DNA of 32,000 bases from Methanococcus maripaludis. GTDB lineage: Archaea; AGJL01; Methanococci; Methanococcales; Methanococcaceae. Made by a program: the position numbers and the translations under genes. The stretch spans positions 810,001 to 842,000 of the forward strand of contig NZ_CP026606.1 in assembly GCF_002945325.1 (NCBI RefSeq), given 5' to 3'. Below the pieces are notes generated by a model. It was not told the DNA's origin and did not search any database. It was given only the letters and a program-made list of their open reading frames with translations. Within the stretch, counting starts at the first letter, position 1; every line of letters begins with the position of its first letter. This document shows, one piece after another, positions 2,163 to 17,050 of the stretch.

Positions 2163-2180
2163 AATACCGCTCCATGCGTA

Positions 2181-2393: not shown

Positions 2394-2418
2394 TTCACCT
2401 CACCAGTTGTACACATAT

Positions 2419-3178: not shown

Positions 3179-3228
3179 TTAATAAAAAAATAATCATTTG
3201 AATCAGAATGAGTTGTAATATTATTCTA

Positions 3229-3838: not shown

Positions 3839-3847
3839 TACTTTATT

Positions 3848-4205
3848 AAAAATAAACCTCTTTAAAGAAATAATACTAATAACTATTTTGTAGAGCTATA
3901 CAAAATCATTTTTAGTTTAAAAAAAGTTCAAGGTTTCTTTTTTCTTAACCTGTTTTCATTTATATATTAAACTTAAAATGTAATCAAAAGTCATTATCAA
4001 AAACAGCCTTTTTTCTTTTTATTTATTTTATTTCGCATATACAGAATTATCTAATAATCTGATTTTGTATATACAAAATCGTTTAAGTAATTCTTGCAAA
4101 AATAGGATTTAGTATTATTTTTTAGCATGTTTTGTATGAATAATTTATTTTGTATATACAGAATAATTGAAAAAAGGATTTTGTATATACTGAATTTTAA
4201 AAAAG
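3848..4205. repeat. noncoding repeat block B (about 358 bp), copy of block A plus one extra palindrome
   Basis: See block A. Palindrome-family sites at 3886-3905, 4031-4046, 4063-4078 (perfect), 4148-4163 and 4179-4194. Confidence 0.9.
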
Positions 4206-4285
4206 TTTAGTTTATTCTGTGGAGTAATTCAAAACTGGATCTGTTGAAAAACGTATTTTTTGAATTGTTGTAGGGAAAAACGAGC

Positions 4286-5947
4286 TTATTTTAATAATTT
4301 ATTTTTTAAAATATCTCTTTTAAAAAACATTAAATTTCTAAAAAGGAGCTGTTTTGCATATGGATCTTTTTCATCACAATTAATATCTGCAGGGAAATAT
4401 AAATCTGATTTTAAAAGCAATGCGTTAATATACGCTTCCAAAATCAATGTTCGAGGATCTTTTAATTCCACTAAAGAATTTTTAGCATCCATTAAATATT
4501 TCAAACCCATATGTTCTAGTCCTAATTTGGAGTAACATTCATAAACATGGCGAAGGGTCTGAATATATGCGTATAACTCACCAGAATTTCGATAATAGGA
4601 TTCTAACTTAAAATTTATGGTCAAAGCATGGCAATAATAACCAATACGGAAAAAGTACTCTGAATAATTTGGTAAAATACAGTATTCTGAATTATTGTTC
4701 ATATTTTTTGCAACAACCAATGCTTTATCCAATATTGGTTTAGCTTCAATATATCTCTTAGTTTCCAAATAGGATGTTGAAATGGTAATGTAAAACGGCA
4801 GTTGAAATGCGTATATATGTTTTAAAACTTCTTTGTCAGTATTTTGACTTTTTAACTCATTGATTAGTAGTTTAATATGATCTAAGGCACCTAAGCAGAT
4901 TTTTTCTACTTGGGTATGCTTTCCAATTTTTAGATTTTTTTGTGCATAAAATTCCAAGGCACAAAGACGTTCTATAATATTTTCAGAAAAAAGTGCTTTT
5001 AAACTGTAATTCTCACTTAAATCCCATTCACCAACATTTCTCAAAAATTGAGAAATAACATAGTTTTTAAGCCTACTTTCAACATTTTTTGACCATATTT
5101 TTATTTTGATTTTCCACTCATTATTTTTGAAACTTAAATCGGTATATCCTCCGATATTCTCGGAATATAATTCCCAAATTGTTTTTACAAATTCATTGGT
5201 ATCCATAAAAACTTCATGAAAATCATAACTCTTTAAAAATTCTTTTTTAGAAACGTCTGATTTAGAATGGTTTACAACGGCTATTTTCTTTTCTAGATTA
5301 CTACATTTTTTAAAAATTGGGTTTATGTCATAAAAATCAGAAAAACTGTAACCCATAAAAATCAAACTATCATCATTGTATAACATGTCTTCCAAGACTT
5401 TTGCACGTATTTCTAAATTATTCTGGTTTGCAACGTTTTTTATCGTGTGTTTTAATGAATCTACGTTAGAAATGCAGCCGTGAATTTTGTAAATTTTCAA
5501 AATATTTTCGTCATTTAAAGAATTTTCCAGATCTTTTTCAGTTCTATATACTTTATAATCCCTATTTTCGACCATTCCTTCATCGATCATGGCTTTTTCT
5601 ATTAGTTCATCAAAATTTGTAGTATATATGGATCCTAGAAAACCCTGTTTTGCTAATTTTGCCATTAAAACATGATTTGAATTTGGAATTCCACAGTCAT
5701 AAACTTTCAAAAGCTCAGCCGATTCATTATTTAAAAATTCCATGTAAACTTCAAACGCTATGTCTTTTTTTAGTATTCTTTCAGCATCTTCTTGATTAAC
5801 CATTTTTAATAGTATCTCTTTGATAAACTCGTTAACTGAAGGAAGGCCTGAATCATAAGAGATGCCCGAACCTACGAAAAAAGAAAGTTGGCCTTTTGAC
5901 ATACTTCTAAAATCAAATTTTTCTAAAATTTCGTTTAAGTTTTCCAT
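4286..5947 (-). CDS. SIR2-family (SIR2_2 / defence-associated sirtuin-like) N-terminal domain fused to a TPR-like helical-repeat C-terminal domain (553 aa)
   Basis: ORF track. Motifs in the order seen in ThsA-type SIR2 domains: LSFFVGSGISYDSGLPS, IYTTNFDELIEKA, KIYKIHGCIS (candidate catalytic His), LIFMGYSFSDFYD. The C-terminal about 270 aa is helical and repeat-like (e.g. EFYAQKNLKIGKH..., YIEAKPILDKALVVAKN..., YECYSKLGLEHMGLKYLMDAKN). Confidence 0.75.
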   Translation of the reverse strand: MENLNEILEKFDFRSMSKGQLSFFVGSGISYDSGLPSVNEFIKEILLKMVNQEDAERILKKDIAFEVYMEFLNNESAELLKVYDCGIPNSNHVLMAKLAKQGFLGSIYTTNFDELIEKAMIDEGMVENRDYKVYRTEKDLENSLNDENILKIYKIHGCISNVDSLKHTIKNVANQNNLEIRAKVLEDMLYNDDSLIFMGYSFSDFYDINPIFKKCSNLEKKIAVVNHSKSDVSKKEFLKSYDFHEVFMDTNEFVKTIWELYSENIGGYTDLSFKNNEWKIKIKIWSKNVESRLKNYVISQFLRNVGEWDLSENYSLKALFSENIIERLCALEFYAQKNLKIGKHTQVEKICLGALDHIKLLINELKSQNTDKEVLKHIYAFQLPFYITISTSYLETKRYIEAKPILDKALVVAKNMNNNSEYCILPNYSEYFFRIGYYCHALTINFKLESYYRNSGELYAYIQTLRHVYECYSKLGLEHMGLKYLMDAKNSLVELKDPRTLILEAYINALLLKSDLYFPADINCDEKDPYAKQLLFRNLMFFKRDILKNKLLK

Positions 5948-5953
5948 AATATC

Positions 5954-6154
5954 TTACAAAATATCCAAAATACGATTTATTCCATTAAAAAGCATATCAA
6001 TTGCACCATCAGGATCATTCGATGCTACTTTTATAAATTTTAAGGTAAATAATGATAAAAAAATCAGAGCAAACCCCATTAATATTCCCAAAATCGGGTG
6101 TAATTCTCCTTTTTTAGACCTAATCAAATTTTTAACTAAATTTAAAAGAATCAA
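5954..6154 (-). CDS. small single-pass membrane protein (66 aa, TTG start), co-operonic with the SIR2-TPR gene
   Basis: ORF track. Hydrophobic segment HPILGILMGFALIFLSLFTL. Its stop lies 6 nt before the SIR2 start codon. Preceded by the GGGGGCGAA leader and an A/T box. The overlapping plus-strand ORF 5862-6170 looks like a low-complexity antisense shadow. Confidence 0.5.
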   Translation of the reverse strand: MILLNLVKNLIRSKKGELHPILGILMGFALIFLSLFTLKFIKVASNDPDGAIDMLFNGINRILDIL

Positions 6155-6225
6155 CCTATTCGCCCCCTAAATTTCGATATAATTATATGGTTGAATTTAA
6201 AATATATTAACTAATCGATTTTGAA
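6155..6225 (-). promoter_or_regulatory. diverged fourth copy of the shared promoter/leader cassette (drives small-TM + SIR2-TPR)
   Basis: On the minus strand it shares TTCAAAATC (distal), TAATTATAT (A/T box) and GGGGGCGAA (leader) with the cassette upstream of the OLD gene, in the same order and with similar spacing. Confidence 0.45.
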
Positions 6226-6246
6226 TTTGAAAAGAAAGGGCGATAA

Positions 6247-6324
6247 ACCTTTTATGAATTAGAATCAGCTTTTGAAGAGTTAAAAGCAGATCAGAAAATA
6301 GTATACCAAATCGTTAAAGAATAA
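6247..6324 (+). pseudogene. 3' remnant of a third wHTH paralogue (…TFYELESAFEELKADQKIVYQIVKE*)
   Basis: My own translation. The frame is open only from 6247 and has no start codon. FYELE...E matches the C-terminus of paralogue 2 (KFYELEKEVE). It is followed by the same AATAATACTTT..AAAAATAAACCTCTTTAAAGAA 3' flank as paralogue 2. Confidence 0.5.
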
Positions 6325-6333
6325 TACTTTTTT

Positions 6334-6593
6334 AAAAATAAACCTCTTTAAAGAATATTACTCAAGATTATTTTATGGACGGTACATGAAACTCCCATTA
6401 ATTAAAAAAATCCATTAAGTTTATTTTTTAATCATATTTTTATTTAAATACTAAACCAGCGGTTTTTTGAAAAAAGTAATCTTATCCACTTAACTATTTA
6501 GAATATTTGGGGCCATATTAGATAATTTCGTGTACCATCTAATTTTAAAAAATCTTATTTTATGTGCCATGAAATAATTTAAAGAAATGGGTA
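6334..6593. repeat. noncoding module X2, homologous to X1
   Basis: Inverted repeat GGTACATGAAAC (6381-6392) / ATTTCGTGTACC (6525-6536), spaced 132 nt versus 131 nt in X1. See findings. Confidence 0.7.
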
Positions 6594-6700
6594 AAAAATA
6601 GGACTTAGTATTATTTTTTAGTATGTTTTGTATGAATAATTTATTTTGTATATACAGAATAATTGAACTGGGGATTTTGTATATACAGAATTTTTGAAAT
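6594..6700. repeat. partial repeat block C (3' 107 bp of block B)
   Basis: AAAAATAGGA.TTAGTATTATTTTTTAG.ATGTTTTGTATGAATAATTTATTTTGTATATACAGAATAATTGAA...GGATTTTGTATATAC.GAATTTT matches 4100-4205. Palindrome sites at 6644-6659 and 6675-6690. Confidence 0.85.
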
Positions 6701-6705
6701 AGAAC

Positions 6706-8463
6706 TTATTTAAGTTGAAAAGAATACATTTGATCGGTTATGATAATAACATCTGGTTCATCTTCCTTTTTTTTGTTCACGCGCATCTCATAAGTCTTTT
6801 TTTGGAATTCATCATATAATTTTAAGAATTTATCGTATTGTTCTGAAGTTAATTGTGTTTTTTTATGGGTTCCTGCAATATTCAAAAATTTGTTTTTTCT
6901 GATTTGATCTAACTCAAAATTTACTCCGTTATGCGGATTTGTTACGTCATTATCCCCTAATTTGTATAATTCAAGCAAATAATTTAAATTCTCTGAAAAA
7001 TTGTCTTTTTCCGAAAATAAATACTCCATTAAGAAATAAATTACACTGTTTTCAACTACCAAATGATCATTAAAATCGAAACCATCACTACCATAGAGTT
7101 CTTTAATTTTTTTAAATAACAAATAAGACGAAAAATTAAAAAAATCGTCAGTGTCGTGTATTTTATTTATAAATAAATCGTAGTTGCATTGGCTAAGTAC
7201 AAACAATACGTTAAGAAAATAATCCTTTCCGAGATCTGAATCAATAATCCCCTTTAATATCTCCTCTATTTCAACAGATAATGCTGATCCAAAAGTTGTT
7301 TCTAAAAATTTTGGAGATTTTAATGCATTTACTGCAATTAATATCATTTCTCGGTAAATGAATAGTAACCTACGTCTTTGAAATTCCTCAAAAATTTGTT
7401 TTTTGGATAAATATACTATAGTCCTATACTTATCAAGAAATTGTCTAACATCGATTCCGTCATTGATACTCCAGTTTATATCTCTTTTTTTGACAATATC
7501 ACTAATTAAGTGCATATTTTTAATTATATCACGAGTATAGTCTTCATTATGGTTGATATTTGGATTTTTTAAAAGGCCATAATAAAAAGTAGCAAAATAA
7601 CAAGGTAACTTTACATAAGTTTGTAAATCATTTGTTTTTGAGTATTCAACATATAATTTACTTTCAAAATCTTCAAATTTTTTATGAGTTTCTTCAAGTA
7701 AATATTTAAAAACCTCCTTATCTCGACTATCTGCAGTTTTTCTGAATAAAAGATCTAAATATTGTAGGGGATATTTTGAAAAATGGTTTTCATTTTTTCC
7801 AAAAAATCCCAATTTAATCTTTGAAAGATATTCTTTGGTATCTTCAAATTTAATTTCATCCAATACATTTTTTACAGTATTTTCGGGTTTCATAAACTTT
7901 ATAATTTCATCGATATAAAAAAATAAAGCAATAAAGTTAGAAACGAGCACCATTAATCCAAAGAATACTATAAAAGAACTTAATAAATTAGTTGAAGGTA
8001 GAAATGCCCCGATAATTGAACTAAACCCTAAAGATAAAATTATTAAAAATAAATAAGCTTTAAAAAAACTTTTATTCATAAATAGGTCTAAAATACGGGT
8101 TGAATAATTATTCGAAGTTGAATTTATTGTTGCAACTGAAAACGCGACAATAAATGCACCCAATATTGATATTCCCGAACTTGCTGTTTTAAAAAGATTT
8201 TCAATATTATTGCTTGAAATATCTGCAGATACAGGCAGATAAAAATAAATTAAAAATGAAATTAAGGAAGATAAACCTAAAATTTTTTTCAGTTTTGGGC
8301 ATTGTTCTTTAATATATTTGATATATGGCTTTATTTTGGGATCAATATTCTCTTTATTGCGCCAATATTTAACAATAAGAAACATTGCGATTAAAAAGAG
8401 CGAATATACTTTAAACATATCCATATAATTCACGAAAGAATTTATCAAACTTAAAAACCCCAT
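6706..8463 (-). CDS. multi-pass membrane protein (about 5 TM in the first 190 aa) with a large helical cytoplasmic C-terminal domain (585 aa); N-terminus possibly DUF2254-like
   Basis: ORF track. Hydrophobic segments by eye. The stretch ATINSTSNNYSTRILDLFMNKSFFKAYLFLIILSLGF resembles the (Q)xxxxxS(P/T)R(I/L)L motif I associate with DUF2254 membrane proteins (unverified). Preceded by promoter cassette copy 1. Confidence 0.6.
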   Translation of the reverse strand: MGFLSLINSFVNYMDMFKVYSLFLIAMFLIVKYWRNKENIDPKIKPYIKYIKEQCPKLKKILGLSSLISFLIYFYLPVSADISSNNIENLFKTASSGISILGAFIVAFSVATINSTSNNYSTRILDLFMNKSFFKAYLFLIILSLGFSSIIGAFLPSTNLLSSFIVFFGLMVLVSNFIALFFYIDEIIKFMKPENTVKNVLDEIKFEDTKEYLSKIKLGFFGKNENHFSKYPLQYLDLLFRKTADSRDKEVFKYLLEETHKKFEDFESKLYVEYSKTNDLQTYVKLPCYFATFYYGLLKNPNINHNEDYTRDIIKNMHLISDIVKKRDINWSINDGIDVRQFLDKYRTIVYLSKKQIFEEFQRRRLLFIYREMILIAVNALKSPKFLETTFGSALSVEIEEILKGIIDSDLGKDYFLNVLFVLSQCNYDLFINKIHDTDDFFNFSSYLLFKKIKELYGSDGFDFNDHLVVENSVIYFLMEYLFSEKDNFSENLNYLLELYKLGDNDVTNPHNGVNFELDQIRKNKFLNIAGTHKKTQLTSEQYDKFLKLYDEFQKKTYEMRVNKKKEDEPDVIIITDQMYSFQLK

Positions 8464-8470
8464 TCACATT

Positions 8471-8530
8471 TAAAATATAATTACATTAAAATAGCCCCAA
8501 CTTAAATATTAAATTTATGATTTTGATTAA
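8471..8530 (-). promoter_or_regulatory. shared promoter/leader cassette, copy 1
   Basis: TAAAATATAATTACATTAAAATAGCCCCAACTTAAATATTAAATTTATGATTTTGATTAAAT. About 95% identical to copy 3. Contains two A/T boxes on the minus strand (TAATTATATTTTA and TTTAATATTTA). Confidence 0.6.
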
Positions 8531-8546
8531 ATAGTGGGGTGGGAAT

Positions 8547-9491
8547 TTGCCTAGCTTTTCACAACGAAACGGCTACAAAGAGCTGAATGAAGACTTATTT
8601 TATGAATGTATGCCTGAAAGTCTTAAAACCAGAATTTGGAATTTTATTCATGAAAATTTTTTAAAATACCAGACTTCGGATTTTTTAAAAGTAGTATGTG
8701 ATGAATTTCTAAAATACGATCTTACTGATGAATGGTATATGGATAATCCGATTACAAATGTCATTAAACCAAAATACCGAAGTTTAAAATGGTTTGAAGT
8801 TTATGACCTTGTTGAATTCTGTTTTGATAATATAAAATATCTCGAAAAAGATAAAAAATTAACATATCACATCCATGAATCCTCAATATGGACACAAAAT
8901 GAAAAATGGGCTTATTATCTAAATAAAGGATTTGTTCAAAAACAAGACTCCAGGGGACTTGCTTATTTAGAATATCCGTTTGAAAAATATCTCAAAGAAA
9001 GATTAAAACGATATTCAGTTCTTTTTAATACATTAATGGAAAAAGAAAGAGCTTCCTATCGACTTATCGAAAATAACATAGTTCCGATAACAAATACGGA
9101 AGAAATAAACGAAATTAAAACTGCTTTAAACCCTCCTGAAAAATATAAATTTGTCGGAGACCACCTAAAAAAGGCTTTAGAACTTTATTCGAACAAAGAA
9201 AAGCCAGATTATGAAAATTCAATAAAAGAATCCATTAGTGCTCTTGAATCCCTAGCTAAAATTAGATTAAATAATGAAAAAGGAACTTTGGGTAGGTTAC
9301 TTCCACAATTGGGATTGCATGAAGACTTCGAACTTGGAATTAAAAAACTTTACAGCTGGACTTCTGATGATAAAGGTGGAATTAGACATGGTAAAAAAGG
9401 AGATACTGGAAGTTATGAAGCTGAAGCCCGATATATGCTTGTTACGTGTTCAACACTGTCAAATTATTTAATTTCGAAGCTTGAAAAATAA
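8547..9491 (+). CDS. AbiJ-like abortive-infection protein (AbiJ N-terminal-domain-4-like + C-terminal HEPN-like domain), 314 aa, TTG start
   Basis: ORF track. N-terminus MPSFSQRNGY...MPESLKTRIWNFIHE matches the FSxRxGY...LRNxLWN signature. The middle and C-terminus (YRLIENNIVPITNTEEINEIKTAL, HLKKALELYSNKEKPDYENSIKESISALESLAKI, LYSWTSDDKGGIRHG, ARYMLVTCSTLSNYL) match the conserved blocks I recall for this family. Confidence 0.6.
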   Translation: MPSFSQRNGYKELNEDLFYECMPESLKTRIWNFIHENFLKYQTSDFLKVVCDEFLKYDLTDEWYMDNPITNVIKPKYRSLKWFEVYDLVEFCFDNIKYLEKDKKLTYHIHESSIWTQNEKWAYYLNKGFVQKQDSRGLAYLEYPFEKYLKERLKRYSVLFNTLMEKERASYRLIENNIVPITNTEEINEIKTALNPPEKYKFVGDHLKKALELYSNKEKPDYENSIKESISALESLAKIRLNNEKGTLGRLLPQLGLHEDFELGIKKLYSWTSDDKGGIRHGKKGDTGSYEAEARYMLVTCSTLSNYLISKLEK

Positions 9492-9494
9492 ATT

Positions 9495-10175
9495 TTAAAC
9501 TATTATTTCTTTTTTATAATAATTATGATAACAAAAAAATGCAGAAACCGCAATTCCGGAAAAGTGAACCATTCCTCCTCCACAATTTGATACTGAAAAA
9601 TCGATCAGAAAAGTTAGAACTGAAAAAAACAATGCAAACATAAAGCTTGACCAAAATCCATTACTTTTTGAAAACTTAGTCTTATTAAATACAAAATTAC
9701 CCATAAAATAATAAGAAATATACATAAATCCATAAACAACTCCTGAAATACCTATTCCGGAATAATTTATCGGTTTTTCATTAATAATCCAGTATGCAGT
9801 GAATGAGATTAATGGAATCAGCCATATGGACATTAATAAAAATAAATATGTTTTAAGATTTAGTTTATATTCTACAATATATCCAAAAATAATCAAATAC
9901 AGCATGTTATATTTTAAATGATCCATATCACGGTGTAAAAAGATTGATGTTATGATTTGCCAGGGTTTTTGAAATAATTCTGAAGGAAAAAAGGCATAAT
10001 TTCTGTAAAACTCGGAATTTTTAATCCACAGGTCTGCACTGTTGTAGTACTGAAGTTCGGGATTTATTTTGATAAAAAATACTGCCATGCAAATAAAAAA
10101 TAATAACATGGTAAAATAAGGGATTTTTAAAAAAAATTTATATTTTTCAAATATGTGCATGGAAAGAACCCCCAT
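9495..10175 (-). CDS. rhomboid-family intramembrane serine protease (226 aa)
   Basis: ORF track. WQIITSIFLHRDMDHLKYNMLYLIIFGYIVE (WxxxT..F.H....H...NM), GISGVVYGF (GxSG catalytic Ser) and VHFSGIAVSAF (catalytic His helix). About 6 hydrophobic helices. Its ATG overlaps the stop of the upstream gene (TAATG at 10173-10177). Confidence 0.85.
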   Translation of the reverse strand: MGVLSMHIFEKYKFFLKIPYFTMLLFFICMAVFFIKINPELQYYNSADLWIKNSEFYRNYAFFPSELFQKPWQIITSIFLHRDMDHLKYNMLYLIIFGYIVEYKLNLKTYLFLLMSIWLIPLISFTAYWIINEKPINYSGIGISGVVYGFMYISYYFMGNFVFNKTKFSKSNGFWSSFMFALFFSVLTFLIDFSVSNCGGGMVHFSGIAVSAFFCYHNYYKKEIIV

Positions 10176-11320
10176 TAAATAAATTGAAGATCTTCAAATT
10201 CTTCTTTTATTTTTTCAGCATATTGCTCTATTTCAGTAAATTCCAATGATAAACTTCCCAATATTGCTTTTTCTTCGTCATAATACCTACCTGCATGTAT
10301 AATTGTCATAAAATATTCTTCAGAATAATCTTCTCCATTAATGTCTTCGTATTTTATGGTTAATTTATACCACGGGTCATTTATTGGATAACTTATGGCC
10401 GATTCTGTGATAATTACTCCCTCATATATCCTTAAAATTTCGTCAGGTAGTGGAATTATTAGATATTTTTTATCATAGGGTGGCAAAACCTCATAATTAC
10501 GCCTAATTTTGGTTTGAACTGATGAACTACTTAAATATCCATTAATATCCGATTCTACCCGTAAATAACCAGAATTATTATCTCCTGGGGTATATTCTAC
10601 GTTTAAATCATTTTTAACTTTAATGCGGTCTGTAGCAGTGTTATAATTTACATCAAATATTAATTTAATATTTTTTGAAAATCCCGTCCCCAGATTATAA
10701 ATTTCGAAATAAGGAATCCGTATATTTCCGCAGATTAAATTATCAGAACTCAGACTAAGTTTATTTTCTCGTTTTTTCCACGTTAACTCATATTTCTTAT
10801 CAGTATTGCCCGGCACACACCTTATTTCAAAATAATTATTTAATGGGGCTAATTTTGGGCGTTGTTGTAATTTTCTCTGTCGTTCCATTTCTTTTCTCTG
10901 ATTAATTGTTTCATAAACCAGATACGCAGTTAGTGTAACCACCCCAATTCCAGAAAACCAGTCAGCAATACTCCCCCAGTACCCCAAATTTAAAAATTGA
11001 GATCCGAAAACGGCCCAAATGAACAATAATGCTCCGGAAGACATTATTAATTGTCCAGCTTCCTTTTGGAAATTTTTTAAGTATTCATTTTGAAACATAA
11101 AATAAATAACAATCCCAAGCATTAACCAAAGTAAATAAAATACCTTTGTGAAGCCATCCAATCCATTCATCCAGGGCATTGATTCAAAGTATGCAAACAA
11201 TACACATATAATAAAAATTAAGAAAAATACGATTAAAACGTAAATTCCGAAAATATCTATTTTTTTGAGTTTTTCGTATAATGACTTAAGTTTAAATTTT
11301 AAATTAGATTTTTTGTCCAA
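10175..11320 (-). CDS. membrane protein: 4 N-terminal TM helices + about 240-aa beta-rich soluble C-terminal domain of unknown family (381 aa, TTG start)
   Basis: ORF track. Hydrophobic segments at about aa 22-45, 57-76, 91-109 and 121-137. Then a basic linker (QRKEMERQRKLQQRPK) and a domain rich in short alternating strands. Preceded by promoter cassette copy 2. Confidence 0.65.
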   Translation of the reverse strand: MDKKSNLKFKLKSLYEKLKKIDIFGIYVLIVFFLIFIICVLFAYFESMPWMNGLDGFTKVFYLLWLMLGIVIYFMFQNEYLKNFQKEAGQLIMSSGALLFIWAVFGSQFLNLGYWGSIADWFSGIGVVTLTAYLVYETINQRKEMERQRKLQQRPKLAPLNNYFEIRCVPGNTDKKYELTWKKRENKLSLSSDNLICGNIRIPYFEIYNLGTGFSKNIKLIFDVNYNTATDRIKVKNDLNVEYTPGDNNSGYLRVESDINGYLSSSSVQTKIRRNYEVLPPYDKKYLIIPLPDEILRIYEGVIITESAISYPINDPWYKLTIKYEDINGEDYSEEYFMTIIHAGRYYDEEKAILGSLSLEFTEIEQYAEKIKEEFEDLQFI

Positions 11321-11337
11321 TAATATCCCGTCCCCTT

Positions 11338-11390
11338 TAAAATATAATTACATTAAAATAGACTCAACATAAATATTAAAGTTATTATTC
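11338..11390 (-). promoter_or_regulatory. shared promoter/leader cassette, copy 2
   Basis: TAAAATATAATTACATTAAAATAGACTCAACATAAATATTAAAGTTATTATTC. About 4 mismatches in 53 bp versus copy 3. Confidence 0.6.
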
Positions 11391-11437
11391 AAAAAATTTA
11401 AAAAAGATAGTAAATACTGATAAATTAAAAATTAACT

Positions 11438-13261
11438 TTATATGTCTAATTTATTGTGTAATTCCTGAATAAAGTTATTATAAACTTCGTATTTTTCCAA
11501 TATTTTCTTTTTGTCATTAATTTCTTTTAGATCTTCAATAACTAGTTCATTTATTTTTTTCTTGTATTCATTAAAATCGTCTGTTGAACCGGATTTCTTC
11601 TCTGTTTTAAACCGTTTTGCATATTCTAAAACTGGCATATCTACAGGTGTTTTAAACCCATCACCCCATATCTCGGATCCGGCATTATCTAAAATATCGG
11701 TTGGAAATAAATCTTCAGTAGTTGCAACATTCTTTTTTAATTTAACTAAATCCAAAATTTCAAAAATATTGTCCATAAATTCGGGATTTTGTTCCTTAAC
11801 ATCTTCAATAACCCGTCTTCCGGCAGTATCTGAATCTAACACTACAAAACCTGGAACTATATCTGTATTAAAAAATTTAACCCATTTTAATACTTCAGGA
11901 GTCCCTCCTGCATCAGTACATCTAACCTCGTTAATAATTTTTTGGTCAAATACCTGTTTTACAAAGGTTTCATAGAGTTTTCTGTCATTGGGGCCCTCAA
12001 ATACAAGGATATTATTGCCCAATATATTTTTTAAAGAAGTTCCTAAGGCTCGGTATATTACTTCTTCTTTTATTGGGAAATTCACGTCGATTTCTTCAAT
12101 AATTGTATTTCCATTTTTTTTAGATACAATAAGGTGATTTTTTAAATCTTTTTTAACCATAAATATGGAATGGGTTGATAAAAATACCACGTTATTTTTG
12201 GAAATATTCAAAAGTTCGTCTCTTAAGTATTCGACGCCACTAGGGTGCAAATGTACTTCCGGTTCATCAATTATTATTACGTTATTTTTCAATGATTCAA
12301 TTTTATTTTGTACTGAAAGATTCAGTAAAATCGACATAAACTGCTTAAAACCATCACTTCTTTCAGTCATTTCCATTTTTCTATATGGTGTGTCTTCATC
12401 ATATGTCAAAACAGTACAGGTCGTACTTTCCAATCTAACTTTTATTTTGATTTTATGTTCAGGCCATAATTGTTGTATGTGTGCCGTAGCTACATCTGAT
12501 AATTTGGATTCATAATTATCCCGAGCACTTTCCTTATTCATTATTTGATCCAATATGGAATTCATATTTTTTTCGTAGCCTGCTAAATAAAAGATATTTT
12601 TCAAAGGTACAGATATATTCGGGTTTTGTTTAAAATTAACCAAATTTATTGGTTGGCCTATCAAATATTTTTCAGAAGATTCCCAAAATATAAATTTAGG
12701 TATTGCTTTTTTTAAATCTTCTAAAACGGCATTTTGAACCAGTTGACTTATTTTTTCTTTTGATATGGATATATAATTTGGAGAATTTTCTGCGGGAACA
12801 TCATTTTTGTTTATTATGTGATTATTACTAGTTGGATTAATCCTATAATCCGATAAATCAGGATACGTAGTCAATAAATTATATGTTACAGCCGTTTCAG
12901 AATTATCCGGCTTTTTTACCAATATTACATTTACCCCAGATATTGAAATAGCACTTGCTAAATTTTTTGGAATAATAGAACTAATTTTAGTTAAAATATT
13001 GATACGATCATCGGAATTAAGCCAAAACTTATAGGTAAACATTATATTTTCATTGTTTTCCTGTGCTTCCATGTTACAATCTTTTACATAATTCAAAGTC
13101 TTTGGTTTATCAAAAACTGAAATCGATTTAAGAATATTACTTTTTCCTGAACCATTTACTCCAAAAAACATTGTATATTTATTATCCGATGTAGGAATTC
13201 TAATTATTTGATCTTTTATGCTTCTAAAATTCTTAATATGTATTTCTTTCAATTCTAACAA
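11438..13261 (-). CDS. OLD-family nuclease (ABC-type ATPase + C-terminal TOPRIM), 607 aa, TTG start
   Basis: ORF track. IKNFRSIK...FFGVNGSGKSNILKSI (Walker A), SDGFKQ (signature-like), VIIIDEPEVHLHPSG (Walker B/D-loop), FLSTHS (H-loop). TOPRIM: NILVFEGPNDRKLYE (Glu) and FVVLDSDTAGRR (DxD). Confidence 0.85.
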   Translation of the reverse strand: MLELKEIHIKNFRSIKDQIIRIPTSDNKYTMFFGVNGSGKSNILKSISVFDKPKTLNYVKDCNMEAQENNENIMFTYKFWLNSDDRINILTKISSIIPKNLASAISISGVNVILVKKPDNSETAVTYNLLTTYPDLSDYRINPTSNNHIINKNDVPAENSPNYISISKEKISQLVQNAVLEDLKKAIPKFIFWESSEKYLIGQPINLVNFKQNPNISVPLKNIFYLAGYEKNMNSILDQIMNKESARDNYESKLSDVATAHIQQLWPEHKIKIKVRLESTTCTVLTYDEDTPYRKMEMTERSDGFKQFMSILLNLSVQNKIESLKNNVIIIDEPEVHLHPSGVEYLRDELLNISKNNVVFLSTHSIFMVKKDLKNHLIVSKKNGNTIIEEIDVNFPIKEEVIYRALGTSLKNILGNNILVFEGPNDRKLYETFVKQVFDQKIINEVRCTDAGGTPEVLKWVKFFNTDIVPGFVVLDSDTAGRRVIEDVKEQNPEFMDNIFEILDLVKLKKNVATTEDLFPTDILDNAGSEIWGDGFKTPVDMPVLEYAKRFKTEKKSGSTDDFNEYKKKINELVIEDLKEINDKKKILEKYEVYNNFIQELHNKLDI

Positions 13262-13284
13262 TGTTTCGCCCCCAATTAAAATCT

Positions 13285-13345
13285 TAAAATATAATTACAT
13301 TAAAATAGACCCAACATAAATATTAAATTTATGATTTTGAATTAA
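13285..13345 (-). promoter_or_regulatory. shared promoter/leader cassette, copy 3
   Basis: TAAAATATAATTACATTAAAATAGACCCAACATAAATATTAAATTTATGATTTTGAATTAAAC, followed on the minus strand by the GGGGGCGAA leader and TTG at 13261. Confidence 0.6.
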
Positions 13346-13366
13346 ACCAAATTAAAAAAAGAATAG

Positions 13367-13744
13367 TTAAAACATTTTATTTTTAATAACATAGTAAAAA
13401 TCAAGCTCATTTACATAATAAACATGATTTCCTCTTTTAATTTCAAATAAAACTAAACTTTCAGGAATTTTACGAGCTTCTAAAATCTGAAGAATTTTAT
13501 AACTATCATCAGCTAAATCAAAACTTCCAGGAACTATTTCCTGAGCTGATACTTTCAAACACTTTTTAATTAAAATCCCGTCAAAACCGGATGATACGTC
13601 AAAGCTTAAATTGGAGTGAATTTTTCCAGATTCAAAAACCCCTAAATCTTCAAAATGTGAAACCGAGTCTATCGCAGAAATTAACTGACTTCTCAAAATA
13701 TCGTTTAAACTTATGTGTCTCTCTTGATCCAACATGAACCTCAC
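13367..13744 (-). CDS. hypothetical protein (125 aa)
   Basis: ORF track only. No motif recognised. Confidence 0.45.
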   Translation of the reverse strand: MRFMLDQERHISLNDILRSQLISAIDSVSHFEDLGVFESGKIHSNLSFDVSSGFDGILIKKCLKVSAQEIVPGSFDLADDSYKILQILEARKIPESLVLFEIKRGNHVYYVNELDFYYVIKNKMF

Positions 13745-13818
13745 CAGATAAATATTTTATACGATAAGTATCTGGTAAAATAATATATAAAAATTGCGGA
13801 TAAATGGAAAAAAAGAAT

Positions 13819-14232
13819 TTATTGGTCTTTTGGAAAGAGCTTGACTGTTACATATTGGACCGTTTTTTCTTCATCTGGAATTTCAAACTCGCTTATCGAA
13901 AATATTGCTGGAACCCCTGAAGCGACCCGAAAGTCTTCGTGCAGTCCCCCTTCGTCAAATAATCCTAATTTATCAACGACTGCTTTTCCTGCGTGAAAGT
14001 ATTTTCCAGGAGCTTCTTTTAATGTTAAAACCGCGTAGTAGTTTGGTTTTCCGTGCTTGTCTTTATAATATCTCGATTCAAGGATTTCATAATCAATAAT
14101 ATGAACCTTTTTTTCAATATATTCTCCCCATTCTGACTTTTCCCTATCAATCATGATTTCAGGAATCCCTAATGCTGTGTAGTAGAATTTTTCAAGGTTT
14201 TCTTTGGCTTTTGACTCGCGTTCATTCATCAT
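13819..14232 (-). CDS. hypothetical protein (137 aa)
   Basis: ORF track only. No motif recognised. The antisense ORF 13905-14099 is judged spurious. Confidence 0.5.
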   Translation of the reverse strand: MMNERESKAKENLEKFYYTALGIPEIMIDREKSEWGEYIEKKVHIIDYEILESRYYKDKHGKPNYYAVLTLKEAPGKYFHAGKAVVDKLGLFDEGGLHEDFRVASGVPAIFSISEFEIPDEEKTVQYVTVKLFPKDQ

Positions 14233-14355
14233 CTCACAAATAAATTAAGTTGTTTATTTTAGTCTTTAAGTATTTAGTACATACTAAGATATTTATAGCA
14301 TACGGTAACAAATAAATTAATAGTACGACAAATAACATTAACGGGCGATCAAAAC

Positions 14356-14550
14356 ATGGTTAAAAAAAATCTTCAAAATTACGGTAAATCAAAATCCGTT
14401 GTATTTGGAATCTCTGAAAGAGATCATCTCGAATTAATTGGAAATAATCCTGAAGAAATCGAGTTAAAATATGATAAAATTGACGGTGTTCCATGTATTG
14501 TGATTTATAACGCTGAAACTTACAGAAAAATGATTGAAAATAAGAAATAA
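14356..14550 (+). CDS. hypothetical small protein (64 aa)
   Basis: ORF track. Divergent from the 137-aa gene. Weak YGKSKSVVFGIS pattern, reminiscent of AbrB-type proteins but not convincing. Confidence 0.35.
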   Translation: MVKKNLQNYGKSKSVVFGISERDHLELIGNNPEEIELKYDKIDGVPCIVIYNAETYRKMIENKK

Positions 14551-14585
14551 TTCTTTTTTAAACTGTTTGATTTAATTTACACTTT

Positions 14586-14720
14586 TTATCTAAACTGTCT
14601 TTTAGAATTTCTTTCGTGTTCTAAATTGATTAATTTTGATTTATCTACGTTTTTAGAATCTGATCTAACGTTAAAAAACCATTTAAACCATTTTAGTATA
14701 AAATTATCTTTTAAATCCAA
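14586..14720 (-). CDS. possible 44-aa ORF (MDLKDNFILKWFKWFFNVRSDSKNVDKSKLINLEHERNSKRQFR)
   Basis: My own translation. TTG start at 14720, preceded by a GAGGGGGA RBS-like run (14726-14733). Below the ORF-track size cut-off. Confidence 0.2.
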   Translation of the reverse strand: MDLKDNFILKWFKWFFNVRSDSKNVDKSKLINLEHERNSKRQFR

Positions 14721-15119
14721 GAAAATCCCCCTCGAAATTATTGAAAATTATGATATTACGTTGTAATTCATGATTTAAAAACCATAGTAAGTTGTTTAAA
14801 AAACACCTATTTTTTGGACTTTATTATGGACCATAAAAAAATTATATTTTTAAGCATATATTGGGACAAAAACTCAGTTTAAAAATCAAAGTACAATTAT
14901 GATTATTTTTTGGTTTTTTGGACTGATTTTTAAAGGGTTTTTTATGAAACACACCTGTTTTTCTAACTTTTTTAAAATCTTGAAAAAATTGTAATTTTAA
15001 TAGAATTTTCGGTTATAAAACCCGTTATAAAATCAAAGTAAGAATATTTTTAAATTTTATGGTTTTTCTAACTTCAAAAGGGACCTATTTTTTCAGGATC
15101 TTAAACCAGGAAATTAAAC

Positions 15120-15407
15120 TTATTCAAAACTTTCCAAAATCAAATTTATTAGATATATCTTGTCATGATGATCGAAATCAATAATTATTATAGTATTTCC
15201 GTCTATTTTATAAGTTAAAACAAATGATTTATCGATATGGACTCTTCGAATTCCTTTCATATCGTTTCTAAGTGGTTTATAATGGTTAGGGTTTTCCATT
15301 ATTTCTTTAATCTTTTTATTTATGATTTCAAGCTGTTTTTTATTTTTCTTCTGAAGTTTTTTAAATGCCTTATAAGCGTCTTCTGAAATCTCAATATTAT
15401 AAGTCAT
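15120..15407 (-). CDS. relE: RelE/ParE-superfamily type II toxin (95 aa)
   Basis: ORF track. Size and the pattern ...KQLEIINKKIKEIMENPNHYKPLRNDMKGIRRVHIDKSFVLTYKIDGNTIIIIDFDHHDKIY are typical of RelE-like toxins. 11-nt overlap with the upstream antitoxin gene. Confidence 0.75.
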   Translation of the reverse strand: MTYNIEISEDAYKAFKKLQKKNKKQLEIINKKIKEIMENPNHYKPLRNDMKGIRRVHIDKSFVLTYKIDGNTIIIIDFDHHDKIYLINLILESFE

Positions 15408-15627
15408 TTAATCCAAACTCCTCTGAAAAGTTGTTTACTTTTATAAATTTACCTTTGCAGATTCTTTCAATCTTTTCGATATATTCCTGCCTTAGTTCGG
15501 GCTCTTCTTCAACTATTGAACGCATGAAAAACTCAACCTGTTTACTCATGCTCATTCCACGATCTTTACAGTGTTTTGAAAATTTTGAATATACTTCTTC
15601 ATCAACATTGAATGATTTTACAGCCAT
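15397..15627 (-). CDS. ribbon-helix-helix (CopG/RelB-like) antitoxin (76 aa)
   Basis: ORF track. The N-terminal KSFNVDEEVYSKFSKHCKDRGMSMSKQVEFFMRSIV fits beta-strand + two helices. Overlaps the toxin gene. Confidence 0.65.
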   Translation of the reverse strand: MAVKSFNVDEEVYSKFSKHCKDRGMSMSKQVEFFMRSIVEEEPELRQEYIEKIERICKGKFIKVNNFSEEFGLNDL

Positions 15628-15738
15628 GTTTTCACCTTATTTAATATTATATAATGTTAAATAAGATTATATAATTTTCCGCTAGTTGAGCGAAAAGGGC
15701 CTGATTAAAAAATATGCTACTCCCTGAAACAAATTTAG

Positions 15739-16455
15739 TTATTTCTCTTTTAATTCATAAAATACCTGTTTTCCATCCTTTTTCCTAATGATTGCACTAC
15801 TTTTTTCCAGGCGTTTTAATGTATCATATAATGCTTTTGTACCGCCTTTAAAATTCTTTACAAGGTCTTTTGGTTGTGATCGGCCATTCTTTAAGATAGA
15901 TAATACTTGTTCATTATCTGTTTCTCGTTTAATTGTTTTTTTATACCGTTCTGTATTAATATACTTTTCAATTCCGTTAAATTTACTTTCCATTAATTTA
16001 ATTTTTTCAGAACTCTTTTTATCGTTTTCATTTATTTTGGCATTTATTTTTTCGGTCCAAGTTTTCATAACGTTCCAGTTATTATTTATTTTTTCTAAAT
16101 CATTAATTCTGTTTTCTAATTCCTTAATTTTCAATTCCCTTTCTTCTTTGGTTTTATTTTCCTGTTCGATATATTTCAATATCTTTTCTAATGTTGCATC
16201 ATGTTCCAGGATTTTTTCTGTATTGTTATTTGTATTTTCCAAGTATTCTGGGAGCCCTTCTTCTAGTTCTTTAAAGGTTTTAGAATGCCCTTTTACTTCT
16301 TTACTAATTCCATCAACTTTATTATTAAGTTTGCCTAACTCTAACGTTATTTTATCATTATCTAGTGTATTTTTCCCACTTTCATTATTATTTTCAATTG
16401 TTTTACGTATTTTATCTAAAATAATCCTCACCCTTAAATTAAATTTATTATTCAC
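15739..16455 (-). CDS. coiled-coil protein with C-terminal wHTH-like domain (238 aa)
   Basis: ORF track. Long Asn/Lys/Glu-rich heptad region. C-terminus LSILKNGRSQPKDLVKNFKGGTKALYDTLKRLEKSSAIIRKKDGKQVFYELKEK looks like a MarR/ArsR-type winged helix. The antisense ORF 15788-16462 is low complexity and judged spurious. Confidence 0.55.
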   Translation of the reverse strand: MNNKFNLRVRIILDKIRKTIENNNESGKNTLDNDKITLELGKLNNKVDGISKEVKGHSKTFKELEEGLPEYLENTNNNTEKILEHDATLEKILKYIEQENKTKEERELKIKELENRINDLEKINNNWNVMKTWTEKINAKINENDKKSSEKIKLMESKFNGIEKYINTERYKKTIKRETDNEQVLSILKNGRSQPKDLVKNFKGGTKALYDTLKRLEKSSAIIRKKDGKQVFYELKEK

Positions 16456-17050
16456 TATGTAAAAATAGTTATAATATAATTTTATCTTTAATTACATGGT
16501 ATATTATCTATTAAACCAGATATAAAAGATTAATTTGAATTATAATGTAATTATTAAGAAAATAAGGGATATTGTTGACATTTGGTTAAATTCTCTGTTA
16601 GTTATCCATAATCAAATATGGCCTTGGACCCATATTGCCAAAAACCTAGGGTTTTGATACTGGTTAACAAATAAAATTGAAAAATGAAAATAATTTAAAA
16701 AAGATATATTTTGGTATAATCAATTAATAATTATTTTTTATACCGATAAATTCTTTTTTACTAAGAAAATGGAAAAATAAAAACATATACAAATTATTGC
16801 TCTTTTAAGGCTTTCAATGACAAATCTATAATATAATTGTAAAATAGTGAATTTAGGGTAAAAAAAATAGATTAAAAAACGGGTACCAGTCATAAATTAA
16901 ATTGAAAAATTTTTCAAATTTTTTTGAAAGATCTTCTGGAATCAAGCCATAATTCAGGGATACATTTCTTAAATTTTTTATCCAATAGCCAACAATACTA
17001 TCTTAATTTTAAATGTGATTTAATCGTCTAGCTTAAAATGGGGTTAATAT

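What the first reader, a model, noticed from the sequence alone, without database searches (positions are those of the whole stretch)
9495..11320. Translationally coupled 4-TM/beta-domain protein + rhomboid protease next to an OLD nuclease: candidate undescribed membrane-proteolysis defence module
WHAT THE SEQUENCE SHOWS
- The 381-aa gene and the rhomboid gene overlap as TAATG (10173-10177), which implies co-translation and fixed stoichiometry.
- The rhomboid has an intact catalytic set: GISG Ser, TM6 His, and the HxxxxHxxxN region.
- The upstream protein has four TM helices followed by a basic juxtamembrane linker and a beta-rich domain of about 240 aa from no family I recognise. That makes it a plausible rhomboid substrate or regulator.
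- The pair has its own copy of the island promoter cassette. It lies directly downstream of the OLD nuclease on the same strand, inside a cluster of SIR2, AbiJ and TA genes.

INTERPRETATION
- I know of no named antiviral system built on a rhomboid protease.
- Hypothesis: infection-triggered intramembrane cleavage releases or activates the beta-domain effector. Alternatively, OLD + TM protein + rhomboid form one three-gene system.
- This is the best candidate in the window for a genuinely new system, but the argument is guilt by association only.
Basis: inference. Interest (0 to 1): 0.8.

Follow-up and report, generated by a model that had tools for sequence, protein, structure and literature searches.

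The report
Orphan rhomboid behind a phage-family membrane protein
In a defence-gene island of Methanococcus maripaludis, an uncharacterised membrane-anchored protein from a rare phage-associated family is co-transcribed with an intact rhomboid protease found in no other genome, so the pair is real and curious, but a conserved "rhomboid defence system" is not supported.

Summary
The sequence observations hold. Two tightly linked minus-strand genes sit behind their own copy of a 62-nt repeated promoter-like cassette. The first is a 381-aa protein with four TM helices and a beta-rich domain. The second is a rhomboid with all catalytic residues intact. Around them lie OLD, AbiJ, SIR2, DUF2254 and ParE genes in a low-GC island.

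- The rhomboid is not a housekeeping gene. It has no detectable relative in 5.8 billion proteins.
- For the same reason, the pairing is a singleton.
- The 381-aa protein is not family-less. It is an archaeal 4-TM version of a rare family (phrog_7259, function unknown).
- Other members of that family mostly stand alone: between integrase and attP of coliphage LLS, next to an integrase in Bordetella, and beside TIR, Mrr, UvrD and Lamassu genes.
- None of 11 distinct family contexts has a rhomboid or an OLD gene.
- In the syntenic island of another M. maripaludis strain, the same slot and cassette carry a diverged copy followed by a DUF6414 (Dodola DolA-like) gene. There is no OLD.
- OLD therefore looks like a separate single-gene unit.

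Best reading: a self-sufficient membrane-anchored accessory (probably anti-MGE) protein with a strain-specific rhomboid add-on, which may process its membrane anchor. That last step is inference.

The parts
10175..11320 (-). 381-aa membrane protein ('TM-beta'). It has four TM helices in N-in/C-in topology, the conserved juxtamembrane motif E-x3-QRK...P-x-L, a cytoplasmic beta-rich domain, and a C-terminal helix. It is a divergent archaeal member of the phrog_7259 family.
   Evidence: ORF. The identical NCBI protein is P0001. Topology. AlphaFold pLDDT 82. Family evidence.
10856..10990 (-). Outer loop, TM4 and basic juxtamembrane segment (aa 111-155: NLGYWGSIADWFSGIGVVTLTAYLVYETINQRK...P). This is the most conserved part among the Methanococcales paralogues, and the TM helix whose out-to-in orientation would suit a rhomboid substrate.
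   Evidence: It is the only stretch still alignable at the DNA level with paralogues in L001, L010 and L011 (71-75% identity). Invariant columns in A4. Q148, R149 and P155 are nearly invariant across 54 sequences.
10232..10852 (-). Beta-rich domain (aa 157-363) with the motifs IYNxGxGxAKN and YxDIxGxxY. Predicted to be cytoplasmic.
   Evidence: No solved structure resembles it by Foldseek. The two best viral models are uncharacterised ~250-aa proteins.
9495..10175 (-). Rhomboid intramembrane serine protease. The ORF is 226 aa. The more likely start is the ATG at 10160 (221 aa), which has a GGGGG Shine-Dalgarno sequence.
   Evidence: PF01694 5.2e-12. Alignment to GlpG. Gene call of 221 aa. No relatives found.
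9906..9935 (-). TM2 motif H81-x4-H86-x3-N90 of the rhomboid (oxyanion-hole region).
   Evidence: Aligned to GlpG H145/H150/N154.
9744..9746 (-). Codon of the catalytic Ser144, in the GISG motif.
   Evidence: Aligned to GlpG S201. Codon TCA read.
9564..9566 (-). Codon of the catalytic His204 (TM6).
   Evidence: Aligned to GlpG H254. Codon CAC read.
11337..11398 (-). Copy B of the 62-nt repeated promoter-like cassette, 16 nt upstream of the TTG start of the 381-aa gene. The AGGGGA Shine-Dalgarno sequence follows it.
   Evidence: Family D7. Sense-strand comparison. No RNA structure signal and no Rfam family.
11438..13261 (-). OLD-family ATPase/TOPRIM nuclease (607 aa). It is a neighbouring gene that most likely forms a separate single-gene unit.
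   Evidence: PADLOC Old 1e-30, AAA_15 1.2e-18, OLD-like TOPRIM 0.0075. It has its own cassette copy at 13284-13345. It is absent from the syntenic L011 island.
13284..13345 (-). Copy C of the cassette, upstream of OLD. It is also the exact boundary between the conserved flank and the strain-variable cargo.
8470..8531 (-). Copy A of the cassette, upstream of the DUF2254 membrane protein gene (6706-8463). It lies in the divergent intergenic region shared with AbiJ.
8547..9491 (+). AbiJ-like gene (PDC-S32). It is convergent with the rhomboid gene, with stop codons 3 nt apart, and so forms the downstream border of the module.
   Evidence: AbiJ_NTD4 1.7e-23 and PDC-S32 2.3e-76.

Best explanation
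The 381-aa gene and the rhomboid gene form one two-gene transcription unit in a strain-variable slot of a M. maripaludis defence island.

The first gene is the core of the unit. It is an archaeal 4-TM version of a rare, sporadically distributed family (phrog_7259, function unknown). In that family a roughly 210-aa cytoplasmic beta-rich domain is tethered to the membrane by an out-to-in helix and a conserved basic E-x3-QRK...P-x-L linker. Elsewhere the family occurs mostly as a self-sufficient single accessory gene of prophages, integrative elements and defence islands. I therefore infer a membrane-anchored anti-MGE role, such as exclusion or abortive infection.

The rhomboid is a catalytically intact, minimal 6-TM protease that is unique to this strain. 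I read it as an optional add-on, in the same way that a DUF6414 (DolA-like) gene occupies the second position in another strain. Its most likely job is to act on its co-translated partner in the membrane. TM2 and TM4 of that partner run out-to-in, as in classical rhomboid substrates, so the rhomboid could either release/activate the tethered domain or limit its level.

OLD is an independent, P2-Old-like single-gene system next door.

Shown here: gene structure, catalytic residues, family membership, island modularity, non-conservation of the pairing.
Inferred: the defence function, and any cleavage of the partner.
For: Operon structure
- One cassette copy lies upstream of the 381-aa gene only, and the junction is a 1-nt overlap or a 14-nt gap.

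Rhomboid integrity
- Pfam match and alignment to GlpG.

Family of the 381-aa protein
- phmmer over 1.8 billion representatives finds 14 relatives.
- The profile search finds 47 relatives, mostly ~245-aa single-TM bacterial proteins.
- 50 of 54 relatives match phrog_7259, best E-value 3.9e-24.
- The best structural matches are two uncharacterised ~250-aa viral proteins.

Stand-alone, MGE or defence contexts of other family members
- Between integrase and attP in Escherichia phage LLS.
- Directly after an integrase in Bordetella trematum.
- After an Mrr-like nuclease and near DUF4238 and TIR genes.
- After a TIR-CHAT protein.
- In Methanococcales: next to NERD-UvrD, Lamassu and an integrase, or between a TIR-like gene and a PDC-S54-like gene.

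Syntenic strain
- L011 has the same flanks and the same cassette, then a 427-aa homologue followed after 1-13 nt by a DUF6414 gene.
- DUF6414 is the DolA domain of Dodola.

Topology
- It places the beta-domain in the cytoplasm and makes TM2 and TM4 out-to-in.
Against: - No function is known for any member of phrog_7259.
- Some bacterial members sit among housekeeping genes with no defence neighbour (L010).
- The rhomboid pairing exists in one strain only, so no co-occurrence or co-variation can support an interaction.
- The family clearly works without a rhomboid elsewhere.
- Rhomboids cut near the outer leaflet. Cleavage in TM4 would leave a hydrophobic stub on the beta-domain rather than cleanly releasing it.
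- The window protein on its own matches phrog_7259 only at E = 0.021. Its membership rests on transitive profile evidence.
Confidence: 0.45

Rival explanations
1. One reading: an obligate two-component 'membrane-proteolysis' defence system. Infection triggers the rhomboid to cleave the 4-TM protein and so release or activate its beta-domain effector.
For: - Tight linkage and a shared promoter.
- An intact active site.
- A partner TM helix of the right orientation, with small residues (SGIG) near the outer end.
- Location in a defence island.
- Neither gene matches a known system.
Against: - The pairing is a singleton. The rhomboid has no relatives.
- 0 of 11 homologue contexts has a rhomboid.
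- The same slot in another strain pairs the homologue with DUF6414 instead.
- Three Methanococcales paralogues have no co-directional downstream partner.
Confidence: 0.12
2. The two genes share a transcript but are functionally independent cargo. The rhomboid acts on other substrates, for example membrane proteins of an invading virus or host proteins, or it is a hitch-hiking gene from a mobile element.
For: - Phage-borne minimal rhomboids exist: phrog_16931 matches at 7.7e-12 and is of similar length.
- The island is a patchwork of unrelated modules joined by repeated flanks.
- The TM-beta family does not need a rhomboid elsewhere.
Against: - The very tight junction, with the Shine-Dalgarno sequence abutting the upstream stop codon, is typical of functionally linked pairs.
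- The second position is also filled in L011, which suggests a partner slot.
Confidence: 0.25
3. OLD, the 4-TM protein and the rhomboid form one three-gene system.
For: The three genes are on the same strand, adjacent, and carry the same promoter cassette, so they may be co-regulated.
Against: - Each unit has its own cassette copy.
- Oligo-T runs, which are archaeal terminator-like, follow the OLD stop codon.
- OLD is missing from the syntenic island, which keeps the TM-beta gene directly behind the cassette.
- No OLD gene lies near any other family member.
- OLD matches the stand-alone P2 Old model best.
Confidence: 0.04
4. The module is not defence at all. The genes are remnants or cargo of an integrated element or provirus with another membrane function, such as entry, egress or lysogenic conversion of the envelope.
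For: - The family is catalogued in PHROGs.
- It is found in a temperate phage and next to integrases.
- In L001 virus-like small genes follow it.
- Some members have no defence neighbours.
Against: - The window's cargo region consists of recognisable defence genes only: SIR2, AbiJ, OLD and a TA pair.
- The position between integrase and attP in phage LLS is the classic moron/exclusion locus rather than a structural-gene position.
Confidence: 0.12
5. The rhomboid is the conserved housekeeping rhomboid of Methanococcus.
For: None found.
Against: - The only hit in 5.8 billion proteins is the gene itself, on one genome.
- It lies in low-GC, strain-variable cargo that is absent from another M. maripaludis strain.
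Confidence: 0.02

Closest known systems
Prokaryotic rhomboid proteases with a dedicated membrane-protein substrate: Providencia AarA-TatA, Bacillus subtilis YqgP/GluP-MgtE, Shigella GlpG/Rhom7 acting on orphan complex subunits (from my own knowledge of the literature)
   Same: A 6-TM rhomboid core with a Ser-His dyad and the HxxxxHxxxN motif. A possible substrate that is a membrane protein with out-to-in helices. YqgP shows that a multi-pass protein can be a substrate.
   Different: - There is no detectable sequence relative and it is below every NCBIfam equivalog cut-off.
- It is encoded in a defence island as the second gene of an accessory operon.
- No substrate has been shown.
phrog_7259 (PHROGs family of unknown function), e.g. 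Escherichia phage LLS gp31
   Same: A conserved membrane anchor, the QRK...P linker, and a beta-rich domain with the IYNxGxGxAKN and YxDIxG motifs. Carried on mobile elements.
   Different: - The window protein has four TM helices instead of one.
- It is very divergent (E = 0.021 alone).
- It is followed by a rhomboid. Typical members are ~245-aa stand-alone genes.
Class 1 (stand-alone) OLD nucleases / P2 Old
   Same: The neighbouring 607-aa gene has the ABC-ATPase plus TOPRIM architecture. Its best PADLOC model is Old (1e-30). No UvrD-type helicase gene is adjacent.
   Different: This applies only to the neighbour, not to the pair. The TOPRIM Pfam match is below its cut-off.
Dodola (DolA DUF6414 + DolB ClpB-like)
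   Same: In the syntenic strain the gene after the TM-beta homologue carries DUF6414, the DolA domain.
   Different: - No DolB is present.
- PADLOC models do not recognise that protein at E <= 0.001.
- The window itself has a rhomboid in this position instead.
Protease-activated or membrane-anchored abortive-infection effectors (bacterial gasdermin + protease; CBASS Cap15 with TM + beta-barrel) and CPBP/'Abi' intramembrane proteases of bacteriocin immunity (from my own knowledge)
   Same: The concept only: a beta-rich effector next to a protease gene, a TM-tethered beta domain, or an intramembrane protease linked to immunity.
   Different: - Foldseek against the PDB gave no match at E <= 0.001, and no gasdermin or Cap15 among the top 50.
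- There is no CD-NTase nearby.
- A rhomboid is a serine protease, not a CPBP glutamic or metallo-protease.
- A rhomboid active site lies in the outer leaflet and cannot reach a cytoplasmic C-terminal peptide.

Membership tests
Rhomboid protease (Pfam PF01694 / MEROPS S54) | Domain match above Pfam's gathering score | tested here: met
   46.6 bits against a cut-off of 22.6, E = 5.2e-12, residues 70-213.
Rhomboid protease (Pfam PF01694 / MEROPS S54) | Catalytic Ser in a GxSG motif (TM4) and catalytic His (TM6) | tested here: met
   G142-I-S144-G145 aligns with GlpG G199-L-S201-G202. H204 aligns with H254 and G207 with G257.
Rhomboid protease (Pfam PF01694 / MEROPS S54) | TM2 HxxxxHxxxN (oxyanion-hole His/Asn) | tested here: met
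   H81, H86 and N90 align with GlpG H145, H150 and N154. NCBI's 143-aa gene model cuts this motif off.
Rhomboid protease (Pfam PF01694 / MEROPS S54) | Six-TM core fold | tested here: inconclusive
   The single-sequence AlphaFold model has pLDDT 47, too low to trust. It predicts helices at 18-42, 72-102, 107-132, 140-165, 170-196 and 204-220. The crude hydropathy scan finds only three of them.
Rhomboid protease (Pfam PF01694 / MEROPS S54) | Intramembrane proteolytic activity | not testable with these tools
   Needs a cleavage assay.
Rhombosortase (TIGR03902) with a GlyGly-CTERM substrate | Score above the equivalog cut-off, and a partner with a C-terminal GlyGly-CTERM TM signal | tested here: not met
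   38.8 bits against a cut-off of 84. The 381-aa protein ends in a soluble acidic helix, not a TM helix.
GlpG (TIGR04239) | Score above the equivalog cut-off | tested here: not met
   14.5 bits against a cut-off of 250. phmmer finds no PDB sequence at E <= 1.
phrog_7259 (unknown function) | Profile match of the protein and of its relatives | tested here: met
   50 of 54 aligned relatives match, best E = 3.9e-24. The window protein alone matches at E = 0.021 over residues 205-366. It is linked to the relatives by phmmer/profile E-values from 1e-31 down to 1e-4.
Any known or candidate defence system in PADLOC-DB v2 | HMM match of the 381-aa protein or of the rhomboid | tested here: not met
   No families for either protein at E <= 0.01.
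OLD nuclease, class 1 (the neighbouring gene) | N-terminal ABC-type ATPase, C-terminal TOPRIM, and no partner helicase | tested here: met
   AAA_15 1.2e-18 and PADLOC Old 1e-30. The TOPRIM Pfam match is only 17.2 bits against a cut-off of 23.2. No UvrD-like ORF is adjacent.
A conserved two-gene system (TM-beta + rhomboid) | The pairing recurs in other genomes | tested here: not met
   No rhomboid by precomputed Pfam or by tblastn in 11 distinct contexts of homologues. The rhomboid has no relatives.
Bacterial gasdermin / Cap15-type beta effectors | Structural similarity of the beta-domain | tested here: not met

The most novel reading that the evidence does not exclude
The pair is a working rhomboid-gated membrane effector. 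Infection or envelope perturbation lets the orphan rhomboid cut the conserved TM4/outer-loop segment of the 4-TM protein, which switches on, or frees, its cytoplasmic beta-domain. This would be the first antiviral module built on an intramembrane serine protease. More broadly, phrog_7259 would be a new family of membrane-tethered anti-MGE proteins that accept interchangeable second genes (rhomboid, DolA-like).
Probability: 0.1. Interest if true: 0.8.

Novelty: new variant of a known kind. Interest (0 to 1): 0.4.

Why it matters
Three things would follow if the reading holds.

- A rhomboid-dependent step would add intramembrane serine proteolysis to the repertoire of prokaryotic immune mechanisms. 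It would also give a rare case of a rhomboid with an obvious genetically linked candidate substrate.
- Independently of the rhomboid, the analysis defines a small, cross-domain family: phrog_7259 plus archaeal multi-TM versions. These are membrane-tethered proteins with a confidently predicted fold that matches no solved structure. They sit at prophage integrase/attP moron sites and in defence islands, which makes the family a reasonable candidate for a new single-gene exclusion or abortive-infection family.
- The island's repeated 5' cassette and 3' elements suggest how Methanococcus shuffles defence modules.

Against this, the rhomboid pairing is a one-strain singleton, so comparative genomics cannot support any claim about it. 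Only experiments in this strain can.

Tried and rejected
Searches that led nowhere
- Sequence search of the rhomboid against 5.8 billion proteins returned only itself.
- tblastn of the rhomboid against phage records found nothing. Pattern scans of viral and metagenome contigs also found nothing.
- Scans for more archaeal TM-beta loci in genome, viral and metagenome contigs with alignment A4 found nothing. Alignments A2 and A3 were too diverse to be used for such a scan.
- A search of species-representative genomes for the 62-nt cassette gave 0 matches.
- PDB sequence searches gave no hits for the rhomboid or for the family profile.
- The single-sequence AlphaFold model of the rhomboid was too poor (pLDDT 47) to use for a fold search. 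I aligned it to GlpG instead.
- The family is nearly absent from isolated phage and plasmid records: 1 phage and 0 plasmids.
- Rfam and RNA folding of the cassette and intergenic region showed nothing.
- Literature searches for rhomboids in antiviral defence returned only irrelevant mentions.

Interpretations considered and rejected
- Housekeeping rhomboid.
- Rhombosortase with a GlyGly-CTERM substrate.
- A three-gene OLD system.
- Gasdermin-like or Cap15-like effector.
Full report
**What is there**

The window comes from Methanococcus maripaludis; the 381-aa product is identical to an NCBI hypothetical protein of that species.

On the minus strand lie three genes in a row:
- a 607-aa gene at 11438-13261;
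- a 381-aa gene at 10175-11320, with a TTG start;
- a 226-aa ORF at 9495-10175.

The sequence TAATG at 10177-10173 joins the last two.

The rhomboid start is ambiguous.
- The ATG inside TAATG has no Shine-Dalgarno sequence.
- The ATG 15 nt downstream (221 aa) has GGGGG 8 nt upstream. The 381-aa gene (AGGGGA) and OLD (GGGGG) carry the same kind of signal, and an independent gene caller chooses this start.
- NCBI's 143-aa model deletes TM1, TM2 and the HxxxxHxxxN motif and is too short.
- With either plausible start the two genes are 1 nt overlapping or 14 nt apart, so they are co-transcribed.

**The rhomboid**

It matches Pfam PF01694 well above threshold, at 46.6 bits against a cut-off of 22.6. 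I fetched E. coli GlpG and aligned it. Every catalytic element is in register:

| This protein | E. coli GlpG |
|---|---|
| H81 / H86 / N90 | H145 / H150 / N154 |
| G142-I-S144-G145 | G199-L-S201-G202 |
| H204 | H254 |
| G207 | G257 |

It is far from any named subfamily. Rhombosortase scores 38.8 bits against a cut-off of 84, and GlpG scores 14.5 against 250. No PDB sequence is found at E <= 1.

In 5.8 billion proteins the only hit is the gene itself, on one genome. Phage records and viral and metagenome contigs add nothing. A phage rhomboid family of similar size exists: phrog_16931 matches at 7.7e-12.

So this is an intact-looking but orphan rhomboid. It is not the genus's housekeeping enzyme.

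**The 381-aa protein**

Hydropathy and charge distribution give four TM helices. The N-tail is K-rich, the 42-53 loop carries no basic residues, and a strongly basic segment (ETINQRKEMERQRKLQQRPK) follows TM4. This implies N-in/C-in topology with a cytoplasmic C-terminal domain.

An AlphaFold model built on 54 relatives has pLDDT 82. It shows helices up to residue 152, a beta-rich domain at 157-363 with two embedded helices, and a C-terminal helix.

There is no Pfam or PADLOC hit. The protein is nonetheless not family-less.
- phmmer over 1.8 billion cluster representatives finds 14 relatives.
- A profile of these finds 47 relatives, mostly ~245-aa proteins with a single N-terminal TM helix, from bacteria such as Nitrosomonas and Bordetella trematum and from metagenomes.
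- Shared motifs are E-x3-QRK...P-x-L just after the anchor helix, IYNxGxGxAKN, and YxDIxGxxY.
- 50 of 54 aligned members match phrog_7259, of unknown function, with best E = 3.9e-24. The window protein alone reaches only E = 0.021.

On structure:
- Foldseek finds no solved structure at E <= 0.001.
- The two best matches among predicted viral structures are uncharacterised ~250-aa proteins, at E = 2.5e-7 and 1e-4.
- The nearly invariant residues (Q148, R149, P155, W181, N209, G211, G213, A215, P292, P316, D326) do not look like a catalytic set. I take the domain to be a binding or structural module (inference).

**Is the pairing conserved? No**

I read the neighbourhoods of homologues.

Methanococcales members:

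| Locus | What surrounds the homologue |
|---|---|
| L001 | An integrase island with Lamassu-like genes and a NERD-UvrD helicase, plus a second, convergent paralogue |
| L008 | A TIR-like gene on one side and a PDC-S54-like gene on the other |
| L010 | Housekeeping genes |
| L011 | Syntenic island in another strain (see below) |

Bacterial and phage members:

| Locus | What surrounds the homologue |
|---|---|
| L003 | Follows an Mrr-like nuclease, near DUF4238 and TIR genes |
| L005 | Follows an integrase directly |
| L014 | Follows a TIR-CHAT protein |
| L007, L015 | Housekeeping genes |
| Escherichia phage LLS | Member gp31 sits between the integrase and attP, a classic moron position |

None of these loci has a PF01694 gene in the precomputed annotation. 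tblastn with the window's rhomboid and OLD finds nothing in them.

**The syntenic strain is the most informative comparison**

blastn shows that L011 is the same island in another M. maripaludis strain.
- Window 13288-16670 and 1077-4190 align at 92-99% to the L011 flanks.
- The cargo between them differs completely.
  - Window cargo: SIR2, DUF2254, AbiJ, rhomboid, TM-beta, OLD.
  - L011 cargo: TM-beta, DUF6414, and two other genes.

In L011 the conserved 125-aa gene and a cassette copy are followed directly by a 427-aa TM-beta ORF. The database protein P0008 is an N-terminally truncated call of it. A DUF6414 gene follows 1-13 nt later. DUF6414 is the DolA domain of the Dodola system, although PADLOC models do not recognise this copy.

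Three conclusions follow.
- The TM-beta gene is the constant first gene of the slot.
- The second gene is interchangeable: a rhomboid here, a DolA-like gene there, and none in three other paralogues.
- OLD is not part of the unit.

Only the outer-loop/TM4/juxtamembrane segment of the TM-beta genes is still alignable at the DNA level between paralogues, at 71-75% identity. This marks it as the most constrained part.

**The cassette and OLD**

Three 62-nt copies, 81-94% identical, lie at 8470-8531, 11337-11398 and 13284-13345. Each sits 6-27 nt before the start codon of a minus-strand unit: DUF2254, TM-beta and OLD respectively.

The stretch contains a TATA-like TTTAATAT(T)TA. I read it as an archaeal promoter plus leader (inference). 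It shows no RNA structure signal and matches no Rfam family. It is absent from the species-representative genomes.

Oligo-T runs, which are archaeal terminator-like, follow the OLD stop codon.

OLD itself scores best against the P2-type Old model, at 1e-30. It has AAA_15 at 1e-18 and a weak OLD-TOPRIM match, and no helicase neighbour. That is the stand-alone, class-1-like arrangement.

**How it most likely works**

The 381-aa protein is the core. It is a membrane-tethered cytoplasmic beta-domain protein from a family that is carried by prophages, integrative elements and defence islands and is usually sufficient on its own. I therefore infer an anti-MGE role, such as exclusion or abortive infection. 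This rests on guilt by association and is not shown.

The rhomboid is a strain-specific add-on. Three facts make the partner the most economical candidate substrate or client:
- the rhomboid is translated from the same message immediately after its partner;
- rhomboids cut out-to-in helices near the outer leaflet;
- TM2 and especially the conserved TM4 of the partner have that orientation and carry small residues (SGIG).

Cleavage could activate the partner or limit it. I put about 0.25-0.3 on any such cleavage, and 0.45 on the overall 'core + optional add-on, OLD separate' picture.

The rivals, in order of weight:
- independent cargo genes that merely share a transcript (0.25);
- a non-defence MGE membrane function (0.12);
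- a three-gene OLD system (0.04);
- a housekeeping rhomboid (0.02).

**Novelty and verdict**

No rhomboid-based antiviral system appears in PADLOC or in the paper library.

What stands is the following:
- a divergent new rhomboid;
- a newly delineated cross-domain family equal to phrog_7259, with no structural match in the PDB by Foldseek;
- an interchangeable second-gene slot;
- a modular island architecture.

Interest is moderate, at 0.4. The most novel reading has a probability of about 0.1.

Noticed in passing
window 4190-13288 versus L011 4664-8531: The island has conserved flanks (92-99% identical between two M. maripaludis strains) around completely different cargo. The window carries SIR2, DUF2254, AbiJ, rhomboid, TM-beta and OLD. 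L011 carries TM-beta, DUF6414, a SEC-C-motif 311-aa gene and a 167-aa gene. One boundary is exactly cassette copy C (13284-13345). This looks like a recombination hot spot for defence modules.
   Followed up: partly
window 8470-8531, 11337-11398, 13284-13345 (weaker copy at 16417-16452): A 62-nt cassette lies immediately upstream of three unrelated minus-strand units, and a fourth copy is in L011 (4615-4650). It is probably a shared promoter and leader, and possibly the homology used to shuffle modules. It is absent from the species-representative genomes.
   Followed up: partly
window 3080-3207, 4076-4203, 6572-6699: A second repeat family of 128 nt contains one or two copies of the palindrome TTTTGTATATACA(A/G)AA, seven copies in all. 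It lies at the 3' ends of the SIR2 and DUF2254 genes and near the wHTH genes. It could be a shared terminator or an operator for the PadR-like regulators (families D3-D6).
   Followed up: no
window 2567-2869 and 3536-3838 (+): Two 100-aa PadR/HxlR-like winged-helix genes lie in a ~1-kb tandem duplication (D1: 300 nt, 94% identical). They are candidate regulators of the island.
   Followed up: no
window 9495-10175: The public NCBI annotation of the rhomboid is only 143 aa and starts at M84. It removes TM1, the L1 loop and half of the HxxxxHxxxN motif, so it is probably a mis-called start.
   Followed up: yes
L011 4666-5949: The database protein P0008 (291 aa) is a truncated call. The ORF behind the cassette is 427 aa with additional N-terminal TM helices, and a 95-aa gene called on the opposite strand is probably spurious.
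   Followed up: yes
L001 10001-12179: Another M. maripaludis strain carries two diverged paralogues of the TM-beta family tail-to-tail (387 aa on the + strand, 311 aa on the - strand). They lie next to a NERD-UvrD helicase and a Lamassu-like cluster behind an integrase, and are followed by many small virus-like ORFs.
   Followed up: partly
window 6706-8463 (-): A 585-aa DUF2254 membrane protein has its own cassette copy and no PADLOC match. It is another unassigned membrane protein in the cargo region.
   Followed up: no
window 18694-18779 (-): tRNA-Leu (UAA) lies about 2 kb beyond the low-GC region (GC 0.22-0.29 from about 3000 to 17000, against 0.31-0.40 outside). It is a possible integration target of the island.
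   Followed up: no
window 13367-13744 and 13819-14232 (-): Two conserved island genes (125 aa and 137 aa) with no Pfam or PADLOC match are shared at 97% identity with the other strain.
   Followed up: no
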